From positions 10,850,001 through 10,914,000 of the forward strand of contig OX597822.1 of the NCBI GenBank assembly GCA_951406725.2: a stretch of 64,000 bases of DNA, read 5' to 3'. Shown one piece after another: positions 826 through 20,778 of this stretch. Numbering within the stretch: position 1 is the first letter of the stretch; each line of letters starts with the position of its first letter. The notes under the pieces were generated by a model. That model was not told the origin of the DNA. It was given only the letters and a program-made list of their open reading frames with translations, and did no database searches. The translations under genes were made by a program, and so were the position numbers. The stretch comes from Octopus vulgaris. Lineage: Eukaryota.

Positions 826-2588
826 TAGTTTTATTTTTATAGCGTGCTGCTTTCACTTCACTACCGAGCGCAGCTCTGTGTGCCTTGGGTATGTGCTGTG
901 ATTTGTTGTGATGCTCTGATGGTTATTGTATGGAAAGTGTTCTGCGTAGGATGTGTGCAGTGCCTAGTAGTGCAATTTTCTGTATGTTATATGTGTTTGT
1001 AAGTCCTGGTGTTTTTGTTATGTATTTGTCTGAATATTTTTTTATCATGCCTAATGCACCTACTATGATAGGAATTGTTTCTGTTTTCAGATTCCACATT
1101 CTAGTTACCTCTATTTCCAGGTCTTTGTATTTTGAGAGTTTCTCCATTTCTTTTAGAGACACGTTGTCATCTGCCGGTATTGATACATCAATTAGAAAGC
1201 ATTTTTTTCTTCATGATCTCTGACAACTATATCTGGTCTGTTGGCCTTAATTTCTCTATCTGTGTGTATCGGCATATCCCAGAGTATGGTTGCTTTCTCG
1301 TTTTCTGTGACCTTTTCTGGTGTGTGCCTATACCATCTTTTTTCTGTTGTTATTCCATAATGTTGGCATAGCTTCCAATGTATGTAGGTTCCAACTCTGT
1401 CATGTCTGTGAATATATTCCTTCTTAGCCAGGACTGGGCAGCTAGAGATAATATGATTTATTGTTTCTTGTCCATCTCCACATATTCTGCAGTTACTTGT
1501 AATATTTCTTTTCATTACATGATTTTGGTAATTTCTGGTGGGGAGGCTTTGGTCTTGTGCTGCAATTAAAAATCCCTCTGTTTCTGCTTTGAGTCCTGAG
1601 CTTCTCAACCATTGCTGGGATTTTTCTTTGTCTATTTCTTTTGCGTTTAGTTTAGTGCAGTATTTACCATGAAGGGGCTTTTCTTGCCATCGTTTTATCA
1701 TAGTTCGTTGCTGTTCTATTTTTAGTTTGGATTTCATTTGTTTTATAGCTTTTGTTGTTTCTTCATCATCTTCTTCTTCTTTGTGTTTATTAGGTGGTAT
1801 GATTTCTTGTTTGTATTTGTCAGCTTCCTTAGATACTGAGAACAGTTTTTTGTTTTGCTCGTGTTTTGCTGCTATCTGGATCAGTTTTCCTTCCTTCTGA
1901 AGTAGGTATTTTTGCAGTCCTATGGTGGTTATTTTATAGTAGTTTTCCAGCTGTATAAGGCCTCTACCACCTTCTATACGTTGTATATATAGTCTTTCTA
2001 TGTCAGATTTTGGGTGATGCATCCTAGATCCTGTCATTATTTTTCTTGTTTTCCTATCTATTTTGGTCAGTTCATTTCGTGTCCAGTTAAGGATATTGTA
2101 GCTGTAACTTATAACTGGGACAGCTAAAGTGTTGATACCTATTATCTTGTTTTTAGCATTGAGCTCTGTTTTTAGTATTGATCTAACTCGTCTATAATAT
2201 TCTTCTTTTATTTTCTCTTTCATTTGTGTGTGTTGTGTCTTATCTAGTTCATGGATTTCTAAGTATTTGTAAGTTTGGCTTTGGTCTAATTCTTTTATTT
2301 CATTGGTTTTATCTAGTGTGATGTTGTTACTCTTAACTAGTTTTCCTCTTTTCAGGGTTACTTTGGCGCATTTTTCTAATCCAAATTTCATATCTATTTC
2401 TTTGGTAAATCCATGAACTGTCATTAATAGTGTTTCCAGCTGTTTGTCATTTGCAGCGTATAGTTTTAGGTCATCCATATATAAAAGGTGGCTGATCGTT
2501 TTGCCGTAACATTTATATCCGCATCCAGTTCTATTTAGCATATCAGATAGAGGTGACAGTGCCAAGCAGAAAAGGAGTGGAGAGAGCG

Positions 2589-2591
<3 letters not shown>
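823..2591 (-). mobile_element. R4/Dong-like non-LTR retrotransposon, 5'-truncated (RT + CCHC + restriction-like endonuclease)
   Basis: RT motifs TLSPLLF, HLLYMDDLKLY, FGLEKC, GGRGL; zinc knuckle CRICGDGQETINHIISSC; RHD and RPDIV..ID endonuclease motifs. One frameshift in a homopolymer near 1202-1208 joins ORFs 1192-2682 and 923-1162. The 3' end AATAAAACTACTG runs into (AAT)n. The MQSR..poly-N start of the listed ORF is microsatellite/SINE, not element. Confidence 0.92.
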
Positions 2592-2653
<62 letters not shown>

Positions 2654-2785
2654 TTCAAATTCCACCGAAGTCGACTTTGCATGTCATCCTTCAGAGGTCG
2701 ATAAAATAATTATTGTTACTATTATTATGATAATCTACTTGTATTGTTAATAGTAGTATGATCTAGTAATATTGCCGTAGCAGCG

Positions 2786-14067: not shown

Positions 14068-14100
<33 letters not shown>

Positions 14101-14579
14101 AAAAGGAAAGAATGTAAATATTTTGATTTCCATTACTGATGAAAATTTGTTAAAAAATGGTTTATTCTTTATGCTTAAAGTCTATGCGTTCAACTGACGA
14201 GAACGGTTTCATTCAAACTGATGTAATGTCTTCATTAATCAATTAAATGGGGCTGCTTAAAATGGCCGTAATGAATTGATACCTGTATATCTTTGTTATT
14301 ATATTCTGTTCACCTAACTTGGGATATGCACTTCGAAAATACTATAGAAAGTTCCTTTATGAAAAGTACATATCTGAATTAGCAAGAGCGAATATTTTCA
14401 CTTAGCTGGGTTGCGTTGTCTACACACACGACAAGAATATTGGGTACAGATGCATCTACACGGTGTCTAGATTATTCAATATTCAAATAATATTGTTGTG
14501 GTGTGAAAATCATACCGAACTAGTAAGGTGCCTCAATATAAGTACCTAATTCAACTGAGTCTTAATTATATTTTATATA

Positions 14580-16284
14580 TATAAAGTAAGGAACAAAATC
14601 CGTCAAAGGGATGTTAAACATCCAGGTTCGCCAGTTCAATCCAAGCAAAGTCTATATAAAAAAGTATATATTTAATATTGGCATAAACAATAAGGTATTA
14701 GGAAAGGAAAAAACATAAGCGTAGACGATTTTTTAATACAAAGTTGGTAAAAATCCAATAAAGATTATAAAAGTTGTTTCCAAGCCTAATTAATTCTAAA
14801 ACAAAACGAAAAAAATAATCCTTTTGAAATCACAAATCAGGTTTTTCTTTGGAAACTCATTATTGGAATGAATGTGTTCGACCAACAAAAATATAAAGAC
14901 CTCTAATAGCCCAGAAAAGGAACAAACAATTAAATTATGATAGAAAGACATTACCCAGAGACCAAACCCATCAAAACCAGAATATATATATATACATATA
15001 TATATCCAAATAAGCAACAAGAATAACTTCGGTAATTTGGTACGATCGTTTCGCACTACATCATTTTATTAAATGTTGTAAGTATTACAACAGTTTTAAA
15101 ATGCTGAGCACTCATCAGCCATTAATAGAGGTTTTCCATTAATACATAATTTTCATATCAAGTGATAACATTATAGAGAAAGTAGATATATAGACAAAGA
15201 TGTGGATTTAAATTTTAAGAACATTTAAGGTAGTAGAGTTTATCAACTGACTGAATAATATTCAGTTGCTATGAACTGTTAGAAGGTTCTGAGAAGAATG
15301 GACAAATGAAAGGAGACAACAAAGATTTTCTATTTATAGAAATAGGGGCGAAGTAGTTGTCAAAGTTCCATATAAAGAAATTTAGGTAGATAGAAAAAGG
15401 TTTGTCACATTACAATGCCATTTACTACTACTTGGTAAACAGATTTAGCATTAGGAAAACTAGGTTAATAACAAATGGTTATAATGACACTCATAGAGAA
15501 TGCAGAGATTTTTATAAAACTAATATACTTCAACATTATAATTAGCTGATAGGTTCTGAGTATTTTGTTACGTTGGATTAAAGGAAAAATTATAGATCTG
15601 AAATGTATTCAATTTAGAGAAAAATCTATCACTTATTATGAGTAGGCATAAAACTTATTAATTAGGGATAAAAGTCTTATTAATCAAGTGAATATATTAG
15701 GGGTCAAAACTATATAATAGGAAAAGTGGAAGAGGGGAAACCAAAGAAGAAAGGAATTTGTAGGTTTAGTAGAAAGTGATTTAATAATGTGAAGAGAGGT
15801 AATTTAGAAGAGTAAATTATTCAGATTTCATAGATAGTGAGTTGGTATTAATGAATAAAAATATAGAATCTGTTGGAAATAATATTTACTACCCGCGGAG
15901 AAAGGTTAATTAGTTAGGTAAAAATATCTTAGGTTAATTATATATTAAGAAATGGAAGTAAGATAATCAAGGTGAACCGAATAGTTTCCTTAGGGACATA
16001 TACTATTTAGTATCGGAGAATATTAAAAAAAAAGAAGAATTTAATTCTAAGTTTGCAATGAAGATTTTTAGTAATCTTTGTATGTTGAATTAAGGACCAG
16101 TATGGTATATTCGTTCTTATTTGGCTATAAATAATTAAAATTTGAAAAATTTAGGAATATTCACAATATTATTATTTAGAATATTTAAACGTACGGGTTG
16201 TGCGATGTAAGCAAGATCCTCCTAGCTCCGAACGGTTATTTAACAGATTTGTATTACTCTGATGTTTTAAAATTTCATATGTTT

Positions 16285-16287
<3 letters not shown>
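14580..16287 (-). mobile_element. PLE remnant: GIY-YIG C-terminus, long 3' UTR, hammerhead, terminal-repeat segment
   Basis: 16172-16285 minus translates ETYEILKHQSNTNLLNNRSELGGSCLHR..., matching the LLN.RSEL..C.H ending of marine-invertebrate PLE endonucleases. HHR at 15034-15125. Bounded by (TA)-rich tracts. Confidence 0.7.
15034..15125 (-). ncRNA. Type I hammerhead ribozyme with extended stem II
   Basis: UGG-CUGAUGA-GUGC...GUGC-GAAA-CGAUCG-UA-CCA: intact core, palindromic stem III ACGAUCGU, GUA cleavage triplet. Confidence 0.8.
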
Positions 16288-16334
<47 letters not shown>

Positions 16335-16336
<2 letters not shown>

Positions 16337-17634
16337 ACTTCAGCGTTGATTAAAATAACAATTCACAATAAGACATTTGCCGTTACTGTCTAAACATAAA
16401 GGATATAGACAAGCAATCTACAGGTAAGTTATTGAGACAAATAATCTATTAACTACTAAGAATTAAATACTTCACTAATTAAATGATTAAAAAATTAAAA
16501 ACAATACATTATCCACTAAAACCTAATTAATACCGTAATTCAAAGTCAATAATATGATGATTTCAAACGAAAATAAAAAGAAATTATTTATTTATAATAT
16601 AAATAATTAAATAAATAAATCAAAAGAGTGAAAAATAAATGCAAAGATCCTTCTGCCTCACGATATCAGATAAACCTAAATTAAACCTCTAAAAATATAA
16701 AATTTGAAACAAAATAAAAGCCTATTTTTAAAGAAAGAACTTATCTTACATTACATTACAAATTAAACCAAACTAAGAAGTAAATATATACATATAATAT
16801 ACATATACATACATACATACATATACACATACATATAAATATCTATATTTACAAATATATATATATATATACCCACCCACAAAAACATATACATATGCAT
16901 ACTTACATACACACCCACAAACATAAACAAATATATATATATAAATTTACAACATATATATATATATATTTTTTTAAAACAATTTTATAAAAATTTTTAT
17001 AAGAAAAATTTTTATACAATTAAAAAACATTTTAAGCTATAGATTATGTAAATCATAGGATTAAGAAATAAATTAAGAATTTATTATCTAATGAATACAT
17101 ATTTTGTTTACTAAACTATAATAAATATATCCCAATCTAAAAAAAATAACGCTGGAAAGAATTCCCTAAAAAGCCATAGCAAAATATAATGGCCAATGAC
17201 GAAAACCAAAAACAAAAAAAATCCAAATGAGAAAGGAACCTAAATAGCAAAGGGTGAAACCGTGATTATTAGACTCTCTTTAACCGGTTAATCAAAATAA
17301 AAAAAAATAAAACATCTATAATAGAAGTACTTATTTAAAATTTTAAAACACATATTTATTCCTATGAACACGGAAAAAGAAACCTCTTTCATATTTCGAA
17401 TTTAACAGCTTTCCTGTAGAAATTAAAATCAAAAATAACTCCTCAGAAAACAGAGAACAGAACCTAATACCAATCTTATAAGCCGGAACTGTCGCTAAAA
17501 TGTTCCATTCAATAAAGAACGTTTTATTACTTGTAATTAATTAGGCTTGGGAAGAACTTGTAGAATCTTTATTAGATTTGTACCAACTTTGTATTAAAAG
17601 ATCGTCTACGCTAATGCTTTTCCTTTCCTGATAC

Positions 17635-17637
<3 letters not shown>
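16335..17637 (-). mobile_element. Second related PLE remnant with an inverted terminal segment
   Basis: 17343-17519 minus translates FFIEWNILATVPAYKIGIRFCSLFSEELFLILISTGKLLNSKYERGFFFRVHRNKYVF* (GIY-YIG C-terminus). 17534-17637 is an inverted homolog of 14693-14795. Confidence 0.7.
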
Positions 17638-17663
<26 letters not shown>

Positions 17664-17665
<2 letters not shown>

Positions 17666-18038
17666 GGTTCCGGGTTCAGTCCCACTGCGTGGCACCTTGG
17701 GCAAGTGTCTTCTGTTATAGCCCCGGGCCGACCAATGCCTTGTGAGTGGATTTGTTAGACGGAAACTAAAAGAAGCCTGTCGTATATATGTATATATATA
17801 TGTATATGTATGTGTGTGTATGTGTTTGTGTGTTTGTGTTTGTCTCCCTAGCATTGCTTGACAACCGATGCTGGTGTGTTTACGTCCCCGTCACTTAGCG
17901 GTTCGGCAAAAGAGACCGATAGAATAAGTACTGGGCTTACAAAGAATAAGTCCCGGGATCGATTTGCTCGACTAAAGGCGGTGCTCCAGCATGGCCGCAG
18001 TCAAATGACTGAAACAAGTAAAAGAGAAAAGAAAGAGA
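17664..18038 (+). mobile_element. SINE family A, 5'-truncated
   Basis: Matches the other copies from the B box to the AAAAGAG tail. Confidence 0.9.
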
Positions 18039-18539
18039 TATATATTCTCAGGTCTTGGAATTTTTTCAACTCAGTATATTACAAATCCAGTACTCCACTA
18101 TGTATTTAGGTAGCAGAACATGGACCTGACGTATTTTTCTTCAGTCATATTTTTTATATTGTTAATATTGTTGTTGTTTAACCGCAGGTTAGTCTTGATT
18201 ACTTGGACCCATTCGCCACCATTTCATTTGGTAGTTTCGAGAAATCTAATAAAAATAATAAAAATATACATCTTTTAAAGGTCTAAGAGGAGATTTGGTT
18301 GTCATTTCTAGAAGGAAGAACTAGAAGGCAAAAAGTCATTTGTTGACAGCAATCATCGATGATGATGATGATGATGATGATGATGATATGAAGAAGGAGG
18401 AGCAAGAGTGTAATGAAGGGGATAATGAAGGAGATAATTGGCTGTCAAGACACTGGTAACGTACAACGCGATGACGTCATCGCTTGCAGGCACCTTTTCA
18501 TATTTGACCCTCATTTGTCAAACAACATCAGTGAAAAAA

Positions 18540-18897
18540 TAATGACGATAACCCGAAAGGTTGAAAGTCAAAGTTAGCCACGGTGGAATTTGAACTGTAA
18601 AGACGAACGAAATGCCGCTAAGCATTTTACGTGACGTGCTAACGATTCTGCCTACACGCTTACTTAATGATAACAATAATCCTTTCTACTAAAGGCACAA
18701 GTCCTCGAATCTGGGAGAGGGATTAAGTCGATTACAGCGACCCCAGTGCGTAACTTGTACTTATTTAATCGACCCCGAACCGAAAGGATGAAAGGCAAAG
18801 TCGACCCCAGCGGAATTTGAACTCAGAACGTAAAGACGGACGAAATGCCGCGAAGCATTTTGCCCGGAGTTCATAACGATTCTGCCAGCTCGCAGCC
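18540..18897 (-). mobile_element. Two adjacent SINE family B copies
   Basis: The core CCCGAAAGGATGAAAGGCAAAGTCGAC and the head TTCTGCCAGCTCGC each occur twice; the first copy is degenerate. Confidence 0.85.
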
Positions 18898-19388
18898 TCA
18901 ATAAATGATTGGTTTATATATGTAGTTATATCTGAGACATAGTAACCGCCGGCAATGGTAGTCATAGTAGTAGTGATGGTAGTAGATGTGATAGTTATGA
19001 TGTAAACCTTAATAGCTGTGATGGTGTTTGGGCTGTTGTTAATGGTGTTAGCGGGGTGACAGCGATGATAGTAGTTGGGAATGCTTTGGTGATGTTTGTG
19101 TTAAAGTTAGAAGTGTGCTGGTTGAGGTTATGATCTTTTCAACGATTAGGCTACATATGTATCGAAATTATCTCCCTTTAGCAACGTTGCTCTCACAAAC
19201 TGACAGCTTTGGGAGTGAAAAATAGACCTGACCGGGCCAACTGTTATGTGGAGGACATCTTTCATAGGCTTTGGTCAAATGACTGGAAAGCCATAAAACT
19301 GAAGATTCACAGTTGTAAGGCTAATAGCGGCAATGTTATCAATGTAATTGAGAAGAGAACGAAAGAAAGAAGGGACATGACAGACAGA

Positions 19389-19428
<40 letters not shown>

Positions 19429-20225
19429 GACAGAGACAGAGAGAGAGAGAGAGAGAAGGGGGAGATTGGAGACCAATACGAGATAAAATATATAACAAAC
19501 AAGAAAACATGGTGGATATGACGATGATGGAAACGATGTGAGGGAAGAAGAGAATAAAAAGTAAACGAAACGAAAGCAATATTAATAACAACAGAAAAAG
19601 AGAGATATATCAGAAATGTAATACGAAATATGTTAAAGGAGAGGGAAAAGAAGGGAAGGTGAGTTAATGTAAGGAAAATAAGTGAGGTGGAGTTGAAGAG
19701 TGCGAAATTCTGATATTTGCGGCATATGGTATCATATGATAAACATCTTCACCCTTGTTCTTTGATTCTTGCATTAAGGCGATGAGGGAAGCATCAAAGT
19801 GAGAGAAAGATGCACACATAGAATGCATGAATACATAAATACTGCATGCACGATACTGACAAACGCACATGTATGTACACACACACACACACACACACAC
19901 ATACACACACACATACACACACACATACTACCAACATACGAAGAAGCAGTGATTGCAATGAAAACCCAAGAGGGAGAGGTTGAGAAAAGGGAGAGAGAGA
20001 GAGAATCACTTGAAGAGGACGAGAAGAGCAAGGCAAAAGCGAGAGATTTTAGATCCACCAAAATATTTAGACAATTAGACGTCTCAAGCTCACAATGAAA
20101 CATGGAGGTCGATTAAGTCAAACTGTTTAGACAACATTTATGTCGGACGAGAATTTATAGGGCATTATGGCTTCCTATGTAATACACTTGTGCGTGTATG
20201 TATATATATATATATATATATATAA

Positions 20226-20259
<34 letters not shown>

Positions 20260-20273
20260 ATTTATATATATAA

Positions 20274-20364
<91 letters not shown>

Positions 20365-20541
20365 TCAGTAAAAGCAATTAAGGCTTTTTTATATAAGCTT
20401 TTTAAAGCCTGTTATAAGACTGTGCATCATCAGAGAACTTTGGAAGTCTGCTTACCATCTAAATTTGCTTTTTATAGAATTATCTTCGATACTTCATGAG
20501 TGTAGCCTCACCCACTAGGATGCTAGGAGAACTCATATGTG

Positions 20542-20633
20542 TTTTGGCTGATGAGTACGGGACACTTGTATTTGCTGCAATATTTGCAGCTTTTAATAAA
20601 ACTGGTCTTCGTATGAAACAATTGTACTGAAAA
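20542..20633 (+). ncRNA. Type I hammerhead ribozyme with extended stem II, inside a ~300-bp module (20362-20661) between (TA)n tracts
   Basis: UUUUGG-CUGAUGA-GUACG...CGUAU-GAAA-CAAUUG-UA-CUGAAAA: intact core, palindromic stem III, GUA triplet, 6-bp stem I. Confidence 0.88.
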
Positions 20634-20658
20634 ACTAATCCATTCTTGTTGCTTTTTT

Positions 20659-20709
<51 letters not shown>

Positions 20710-20742: not shown

Positions 20743-20778
20743 CTTTCTATAGAAGAGCGTAGGCTCGAAACGTAAAAG
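20743..20778 (+). ncRNA. Minimal hammerhead-like motif with variant core, inside a ~165-bp module (20707-20869) between (TA)n tracts
   Basis: CUUU-CUAUAGA-A-GAGC-GUAG-GCUC-GAAA-CGUA-AAAG. All three stems are present, but CUGANGA is replaced by CUAUAGA. Confidence 0.65.

What the first reader, a model, noticed from the sequence alone, without database searches (positions are those of the whole stretch)
15034..20633. Two divergent hammerheads share a long stem II with covariation and an embedded AATAAA
Seen: HHRs at 15034-15125 (-) and 20542-20633 (+) both have intact CUGAUGA/GAAA cores, 8-nt palindromic stem III (ACGAUCGU vs ACAAUUGU) and GUA sites. Both also have a ~60-nt stem II whose apical hairpin differs by compensatory changes (GUUGUAA-UAC-UUACAAC vs GCUGCAA-UAU-UUGCAGC), followed by UUUAAUAAAA. 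Established: PLE hammerheads usually have short stem II. Inference: this is a conserved structural subclass in which a poly(A) signal ~30 nt upstream of the cleavage site is sequestered in the ribozyme, possibly coupling cleavage and 3' end formation.
Basis: partly seen in the sequence, partly recalled or inferred. Interest (0 to 1): 0.72.

Follow-up and report, generated by a model that had tools for sequence, protein, structure and literature searches.

The report
Long-armed retrotransposon hammerhead with poly(A) hexamer
Both motifs are tail ends of two related jumping-gene families whose hammerhead RNA motif has a 60-base arm; long arms are common in this genome, but this lineage also keeps an A(A/T)TAAA that likely acts as a leaky polyadenylation signal competing with, not coupled to, the predicted self-cut.

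Summary
Both hammerheads (HHRs) are 3' fragments of two sister families of Penelope-like retrotransposons with Hydra-clade motifs (about 2,000 search candidates each), so they are homologues, not independent inventions. A long stem II is ordinary in this genome (15,456 pattern matches against 213 control; 27 families) though longer than published Hydra HHRs and missed by Rfam. Only 3 of 27 families carry AATAAA/ATTAAA 10-35 nt before the cut (2.1 expected), so it does not define the class. Within this lineage it is constrained: 9 of 9 subfamilies (46-90% identical) keep it 22-26 nt before the cut, switching only between AATAAA and ATTAAA, each with an upstream UGUA. Hairpin covariation is modest (3 of 7 pairs). 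Genomic copies end about 35 or 150 nt beyond the cut in (TA)n, none at the cut, so the copied RNA is uncut and reads through; the same ribozyme also sits 210 nt before the start codon. Best reading: a leaky, partly masked poly(A) signal competing with read-through. RNA data gave no verdict. The scan noted this lineage before elsewhere in this genome (e1-9965396) and long-armed HHRs in other genomes.

The parts
15006..16285 (-). Copy A: 5'-truncated 3' end of a Hydra-type PLE (end of the GIY-YIG ORF, about 1.05 kb 3' UTR, HHR, 35-nt end) flanked by TA-rich repeats
   Evidence: (2,327 candidates; 40 scored; best non-self 93%)
16172..16285 (-). Last 38 codons of the endonuclease (approximate bounds)
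   Evidence: 60.5% identity to residues 917-954 of the L126 ORF, 1056 nt upstream of the HHR core
15038..15121 (-). HHR A, type I minimal; core starts 15118; predicted cut between 15041 and 15040
15053..15111 (-). Stem II arm A, 59 nt
15075..15091 (-). Apical hairpin A (7 bp, contains UGUA)
15065..15070 (-). AATAAA, 24 nt before the predicted cut; last four bases predicted paired, first two mostly free
15012..15023 (-). Conserved U/GU-rich block, +18 to +29
20395..20661 (+). Copy B: about 270-nt 3' fragment of the sister family, between (TA)n runs
   Evidence: 2,060 candidates; 40 scored; 94-97% over query 30-295
20542..20632 (+). HHR B; core starts 20548; predicted cut between 20626 and 20627
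20555..20614 (+). Stem II arm B, 60 nt
20574..20590 (+). Apical hairpin B (7 bp)
20595..20600 (+). AATAAA, 26 nt before the predicted cut
20643..20654 (+). Conserved U/GU-rich block, +17 to +28
14189..14275 (+).

Best explanation
The two motifs are the terminal-repeat hammerheads of two sister Penelope-like retrotransposon families with Hydra-clade motifs, left as truncated 3' fragments, and the A(A/U)UAAA in their long arm likely works as a leaky, partly masked poly(A) signal that competes with read-through instead of being coupled to the predicted self-cut. Shown: identity, position at both ends of full-length elements (cut site 210 nt before the ATG, and 1.0-1.6 kb after the stop), copy ends at about +35 and +150, lineage-level constraint on hairpin, hexamer and U/GU block. 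Inferred: the ribozyme cuts slowly, as a dimer through the palindromic stem III or with help from the element's protein; RNA that neither cuts nor is polyadenylated reaches the two UAUA-containing end sites and is copied by priming from nicked (TA)n DNA; a fraction is cut by the host 3'-end machinery near the ribozyme site to give mRNA. A ribozyme cut would part the hexamer from the downstream U/GU block and leave a cyclic phosphate, so the two cuts would be alternatives.
For: Identity: ORF of 954 aa in L126 with RWK, DKT, YRDD, CxCX5C and CxxC/CxH motifs matching the Hydra description (PMC8557442 section 11; alignment passages); A/B endonuclease 58% identical. Direct upstream HHR 282-286 nt before the anchor in 14 of 30 ORF-start loci (a 15th at 1,236 nt), first open ATG at +209/+210 in most. 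Ends: of 158 copies 131 reach a TA-type repeat within 260 nt, 68 at +30-49 and 51 at +110-169, 0 within 10 nt, 1 with an A10 run; both ends fall on internal TATA-like letters. Same logic as Poseidon, where uncut RNA is the template and cleavage needs protein (PMC11167929). Hexamer: 125 of 136 lineage copies and 9 of 9 subfamilies, found with patterns that did not ask for it; simulation at the mean stem II rate keeps it in all tips in 0, 4 and 7 of 1,500 runs; only AATAAA and ATTAAA occur, by two different substitutions; spacing 22-26 nt; UGUA upstream in 9 of 9, at differing places, against 6 of 25 other families; its pairing varies while its sequence does not.
Against: One lineage is one evolutionary observation, and the hexamer was picked from two of its members. 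3 of 27 families have it against 2.07 expected (P=0.34). The U-rich downstream block is as strong in families without the hexamer (median 0.63 against 0.64-0.80) and may simply be the priming end. The 3' UTRs hold 2, 6 and 6 other AATAAA/ATTAAA further upstream. An active signal in the upstream repeat would stop transcription before the ORF unless suppressed or unless transcription starts downstream (start site unknown). The apical TGYAA..TTNCA and the U/GU block are about as conserved, so a protein- or DNA-binding role explains the block equally. No poly(A)-ended family copy was found in the genome. Majority rows use 96 of 136 copies; 40 in clusters under 3 were left out.
Confidence: 0.42

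Rival explanations
1. The long arm is a folding or docking platform for the element's own RT-EN protein (or for stem I-stem II contact); the hexamer is just the A-rich 3' strand of an A-U helix or part of the protein footprint and has no poly(A) role.
For: 24 of 27 long-armed families lack the hexamer at this place; protein-assisted cleavage is shown for a Poseidon HHR (PMC11167929); basal stem and apical hairpin keep pairing (91% of cells, 10 of 20 pairs with two-sided change); the hexamer's last bases are predicted paired in most subfamilies.
Against: Arms of different families share no obvious sequence; the hexamer's partner strand and register change while it stays within the two strongest poly(A) hexamers; in subfamily F28 it is mostly unpaired.
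Confidence: 0.33
2. The conserved block acts as DNA: TGYAA-N3-TTRCA is a palindromic transcription-factor site and the A-rich hexamer a TATA-like element of the promoter in the upstream terminal repeat.
For: The block lies about 235-260 nt before the ATG in full-length copies; Penelope's promoter lies in its terminal repeat (PMC6765202 passages; PMC2377424 passages); 4 of 7 hairpin pairs never show a two-sided change and C.A or U.U mismatches are fixed in several subfamilies.
Against: G.U wobbles at hairpin pairs 33-49, 36-46 and 37-45 (3 rows each) fit RNA pairing; the motif is nested in a larger RNA stem.
Confidence: 0.12
3. One reading: the ribozyme cut itself makes the 3' end that is then polyadenylated under control of the sequestered hexamer.
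For: The hexamer-to-cut distance (22-26 nt) is that of a normal poly(A) site.
Against: No genomic copy ends at the cut (0 of 158); no poly(A) copies; a hammerhead leaves a 2',3'-cyclic phosphate that needs healing before tailing and removes the downstream element (established knowledge, recalled); no read ends were seen at the cut of a Poseidon HHR (PMC11167929).
Confidence: 0.08

Closest known systems
Hydra-clade PLE hammerheads (Craig et al. 2021, PMC8557442: passages, section 11, supplement parts 1, 2, 24 and a search; includes Hydra-1_Obim)
   Same: C-terminal GIY-YIG, CxCX5C linker, RWK and DKT motifs, (TA)n targets, sense-strand type I HHR near the 3' end, tail extension, inverted truncated partner copies.
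   Different: Published Hydra HHRs in File S2 have 3-7 bp stems with 3-10 nt loops (about 11-27 nt between the cores); here 56-60 nt. Elements here are about 4-4.7 kb, against under 3 kb. Tail about 115 nt, against 30-40.
Minimal HHRs of metazoan PLEs (Cervera and de la Pena 2014, PMC4209133, parts 1-2 of 4 read; supplements not read)
   Same: Short stem I, palindromic stem III predicted to need a dimer, many divergent families per genome with compensatory changes.
   Different: Helix II there is 7-8 bp; no embedded poly(A) hexamer is mentioned in the parts read.
PLE-X1 hammerheads of Selaginella (PMC8557442 File S2)
   Same: PLE HHRs with about 50 nt between the cores, so a long loop 2 has a precedent.
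   Different: EN-minus, rDNA-targeted plant elements; unrelated arm.
Poseidon PAc element (Frangieh et al. 2024, PMC11167929, parts 1-2 of 4 read)
   Same: Two reverse-transcription start sites downstream of an uncut HHR explain the tail; cleavage is protein-assisted.
   Different: Its ORF starts in stem II; here the ATG is 210 nt after the cut.
HIV-1 polyA hairpin (PMC2645353, abstract only)
   Same: AAUAAA inside a structure present at both ends of a terminally repeated RNA, repressed at the 5' copy; works-like analogy only.
   Different: No ribozyme; function there is shown, here inferred.
Split Clec2 hammerhead (review PMC6765202, passages)
   Same: Hammerhead with a large insertion, acting next to a poly(A) signal in a 3' UTR.
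   Different: There the cut lies upstream of the signal and removes it; here the hexamer lies inside the ribozyme, upstream of the cut.

Membership tests
Type I hammerhead ribozyme | Core CUGANGA, GAAA, NUH joined by helices I-III | tested here: met
   (stems I, II base and III 89-100% paired over 16 sequences)
Type I hammerhead ribozyme | G10.1-C11.1 closing pair | tested here: inconclusive
   G-C in A, G.U in B; 8 G-C and 8 G.U in 16 rows
Type I hammerhead ribozyme | Self-cleavage | not testable with these tools
   only contigs of RNA-like runs were available
Type I hammerhead ribozyme | Stem I-loop 2 tertiary contact | not tested
   no search for it was run
Minimal PLE hammerhead | Short palindromic stem III able to pair between two copies | tested here: met
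   8-bp homoduplex -10.0 and -6.4 kcal/mol; two-sided change at pair 79-82
Minimal PLE hammerhead | Lies in the terminal repeat at both ends of the ORF | tested here: met
   B lineage: direct upstream HHR in 14 of 30 ORF-start loci at 282-286 nt; downstream HHR in L126, L127, L128. Upstream copy not examined for family A
Minimal PLE hammerhead | Helix II of about 4-8 bp with a short loop (typical, not defining for catalysis) | tested here: not met
   59-60 nt arm; this is the variant feature
Hydra clade of PLEs | RT followed by C-terminal GIY-YIG-type endonuclease in one ORF | tested here: met
   by motif in the 954-aa ORF of L126; Pfam gave no hit
Hydra clade of PLEs | RWK, DKT, CxCX5C, and CxxC/CxH around the conserved E and N | tested here: met
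   read by eye
Hydra clade of PLEs | Insertion into (TA)n | tested here: met
   131 of 158 copies reach a TA-type repeat within 260 nt
Hydra clade of PLEs | Placement inside the clade on an RT tree | not tested
   the published sequences could be read but not handed to the alignment tools
Hydra clade of PLEs | Generally shorter than 3 kb (descriptive) | tested here: not met
   ORF about 2.9 kb plus 1.0-1.6 kb 3' UTR
Naiad clade of PLEs | N-terminal endonuclease | tested here: not met
   endonuclease is C-terminal
Non-LTR retrozyme | Non-coding tandem units each with an HHR | tested here: not met
   families A and B carry a coding ORF
Metazoan poly(A) signal | AAUAAA/AUUAAA with upstream UGUA and downstream U/GU-rich element | tested here: met
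   9 of 9 subfamilies; the U-rich block is not specific to them. The signal's layout is recalled, not from a call
Metazoan poly(A) signal | Poly(A) added 10-30 nt downstream in RNA | tested here: inconclusive
   contigs only, tables cut

The most novel reading that the evidence does not exclude
This lineage has built a complete poly(A) signal (UGUA, AWUAAA, GU-rich element) into its hammerhead so that one 130-nt RNA module chooses between three fates at the same spot: self-cleavage, host cleavage and polyadenylation to give mRNA, or read-through to give the transposition template, with the fold or the element's protein masking the signal in the upstream repeat. That would give a testable job to PLE hammerheads, whose role is still open.
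Probability: 0.22. Interest if true: 0.78.

Novelty: new variant of a known kind. Interest (0 to 1): 0.46.

Why it matters
The role of PLE hammerheads is called unknown in the papers read (PMC7761336, PMC8557442). More than 15,000 long-armed matches in this genome escape Rfam and short-stem descriptors, so HHR counts in such genomes are underestimated. This lineage offers young, near-identical copies with open ORFs and natural AATAAA/ATTAAA variants, which makes the competition between self-cleavage, polyadenylation and read-through directly testable. If the hexamer has no poly(A) role, the finding is an enlarged but otherwise ordinary PLE ribozyme.

Tried and rejected
Rfam: no hammerhead family at E up to 1 (window) or 10 (each motif). 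One search used a 5-nt stem III spacer by mistake and so excluded A and B; it was kept because it revealed other families (144 matches, 5 control). I first took the elements for Naiads; rejected. RNA: no holder on record as RNA was listed; 7 distinct runs were laid, all as contigs; no poly(A) loose end appears among the rows shown, but 7 and 24 rows were hidden and contigs cannot show ends, so no verdict. Poly(A)-ended genomic copies: 5 matches against 10 control and 7 against 2 control, none read as a family member. An intron spanning the upstream HHR was considered (donor-like GTGAGT 230-340 nt upstream in B subfamilies, acceptor-like CAG about +165); no spliced copy among the 23 rows printed, and no donor-like site in A; not supported. 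The idea that the Naiad 'half cores' of PMC8557442 are long-armed HHRs was checked by eye on the Octopus Naiad consensus ends: the GAAA half lies upstream of the CUGAUGA half, so they are not of this kind. RNAalifold recovers only the apical hairpin because the middle helix is out of register in the alignment; the middle helix was therefore not scored for covariation. Pfam gave no hit for the ORF. Not found in print with searches; Lunse et al. 2017 (PMC5785218) and Arkhipova et al. 2017 (PMC5850863) were not held, and the supplements of PMC4209133 and of the bioRxiv preprint were not seen; any of them may show long-stem-II PLE HHRs.
Full report
Observation. A scan of both strands finds exactly two intact hammerhead patterns in the window, at 15118 (-) and 20548 (+), with 59 and 60 nt between the core halves. 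The arms fold better than shuffles. Rfam does not see them. A third, decayed member with a broken GAAA and ATTAAA lies at 14194-14270.

What they are. The window is G000:C9:10850001-10914000 of a 2.8-Gb genome. Each motif belongs to an interspersed family: 2,060 and 2,327 first-look candidates, 40 scored each. Copy A continues upstream into about 1.05 kb of UTR and the last 38 codons of an endonuclease. Relatives carry an RT followed by a C-terminal GIY-YIG-type domain; locus L126 has a 954-aa open frame with RWK, DKT, YRDD, CxCX5C and CxxC/CxH motifs, the features given for the Hydra clade (PMC8557442 section 11). I did not place it on a tree with published sequences. A and B are sister families: 58% identity over 157 endonuclease-region residues; in two of three A-versus-B comparisons only the coding end and the HHR block align (67-71%), the third adds one weak 135-nt match.

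Anatomy of the element. In 14 of 30 loci holding the ORF start, a direct copy of the same ribozyme lies 282-286 nt before the anchor, with the first open ATG mostly 209-210 nt after the predicted cut. So the module sits at both ends. Of 158 lineage copies, 131 run into a TA-type repeat within 260 nt: 68 at +30-49, 51 at +110-169, none within 10 nt of the cut; one has an A10 run. Both ends coincide with TATA-like letters inside the element, which suggests priming by nicked (TA)n DNA (inference). The copied RNA is therefore uncut and unpolyadenylated at this site, as shown biochemically for Poseidon (PMC11167929).

Is the long arm special? Exact patterns give 4,061 (control 14) and 11,395 (control 199) long-armed matches, against 10,129 (control 699) for spacers of 7-30 nt with a looser core. 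Of 208 distinct hits in fetched loci, 169 had stem I of 3 bp or more and fell into 27 families with arms of 41-65 nt; A and B form one cluster. Published Hydra HHRs have about 11-27 nt between the cores, and two Selaginella PLE-X HHRs about 50 (File S2). The premise holds for the literature I could read, not for this genome.

Covariation. On 16 sequences, stems I, III, the base of stem II and the apical hairpin are 91% paired with 10 of 20 pairs changing on both sides. The hairpin alone is 88% paired, 3 of 7 pairs with two-sided change; covariation score 0.287 against 0.184 shuffled, but the pair-count measures are not above shuffles (127 and 255 of 500), one slid control reaches 0.225, and C.A and U.U mismatches are fixed in several subfamilies. 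The hairpin is real but is conserved as much in sequence (TGYAA..TTNCA) as in pairing. The sequences are related, so these are not probabilities.

The hexamer. Across families it is at chance level: 3 of 27 against 2.07 expected, P=0.34; several other families instead have one just downstream of the cut. Within the lineage it is constrained: 125 of 136 copies and 9 of 9 subfamilies (46-90% identical over the block; 40 copies in clusters under 3 left out) keep AATAAA or ATTAAA, including subfamilies found by patterns that did not require it (209 and 3,731 matches). Simulated at the mean stem II rate, all nine tips keep it in 0, 4 and 7 of 1,500 runs. The spacing to the cut is 22-26 nt, UGUA lies upstream in 9 of 9 at differing positions (6 of 25 other families), and a U/GU-rich block follows. 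Predicted pairing of the hexamer varies from mostly free to fully paired, so masking is partial. Against a poly(A) role: U-rich blocks follow the cut in families without the hexamer too; the UTRs contain 2, 6 and 6 further hexamers 670-1,220 nt upstream; no poly(A)-ended family copy exists among exact matches; an unsuppressed signal in the upstream repeat would truncate the ORF transcript.

Mechanism. I commit to a leaky poly(A) signal competing with read-through (0.42), ahead of a protein-docking or folding arm with an incidental hexamer (0.33), a DNA promoter element (0.12) and direct coupling of the ribozyme cut to tailing (0.08). The identity as a Hydra-type PLE hammerhead is about 0.95. 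Slow, dimer- or protein-dependent cleavage is inferred from the palindromes, from the active fold lying 3-4 kcal/mol above the MFE and from PMC4209133 and PMC11167929. RNA data were contigs only and gave no verdict.

Known and new. The ribozyme type and its place are known. The 60-nt arm and the embedded hexamer were not found in print with searches; two relevant papers were not held and some supplements were not seen. Papers seen: PMC4209133 and PMC11167929 parts 1-2 of 4; bioRxiv 10.64898/2026.07.22.740005 parts 1-3 of 5; PMC8557442 passages, section 11, supplement parts 1, 2, 24 and a search; passages of PMC6765202, PMC2377424, PMC7761336; abstract of PMC2645353. Earlier notes of this scan describe long-armed Hydra HHRs in this and other genomes and the same hexamer lineage in this genome; they are not independent support. 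Verdict: new variant of a known kind, interest 0.46.

Noticed in passing
window 14189-14275 (+), element about 14100-14560: Third long-armed HHR of the same lineage (subfamily C) with a broken GAAA core and ATTAAA.
   Followed up: yes
G000 genome-wide: At least 27 HHR families with 41-65 nt stem II arms of unrelated sequence; arm length forms a continuum from about 8 to 65 nt.
   Followed up: partly
L153-L155, L198 (G000:C1:5011305-5012441; 16526555-16529083): Tandem units of about 535 bp, each with a 50-nt-armed HHR: retrozyme-like arrays.
   Followed up: no
L262, +37 and about +150 after the cut: Both element ends fall on TATA-like letters inside the element, suggesting primer-template pairing with the (TA)n target.
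   Followed up: partly
L262, L280, L286 upstream repeat: Donor-like GTGAGT/GTGGGT 230-340 nt before the HHR and acceptor-like CAG about 165 nt after the cut; a possible intron enclosing the upstream ribozyme, absent from A.
   Followed up: partly
window 20748-20777 (+): Common short repeat resembling a short-stem hammerhead with a damaged first core half.
   Followed up: no
window 14690-14800 and 17535-17635 (+): Two diverged copies of another repeat end flank copy A in the same orientation.
   Followed up: no
window 1192-2709 (-): 505-aa open frame of a LINE-type reverse transcriptase (YMDD motif), a different retrotransposon.
   Followed up: no
L067, L070, L085, L127: The RT-endonuclease linker of these families is expanded by long asparagine microsatellites.
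   Followed up: no
clusters 1, 5, 9, 17, 22: In these families AATAAA/ATTAAA lies 1-60 nt downstream of the cut in most copies examined.
   Followed up: partly
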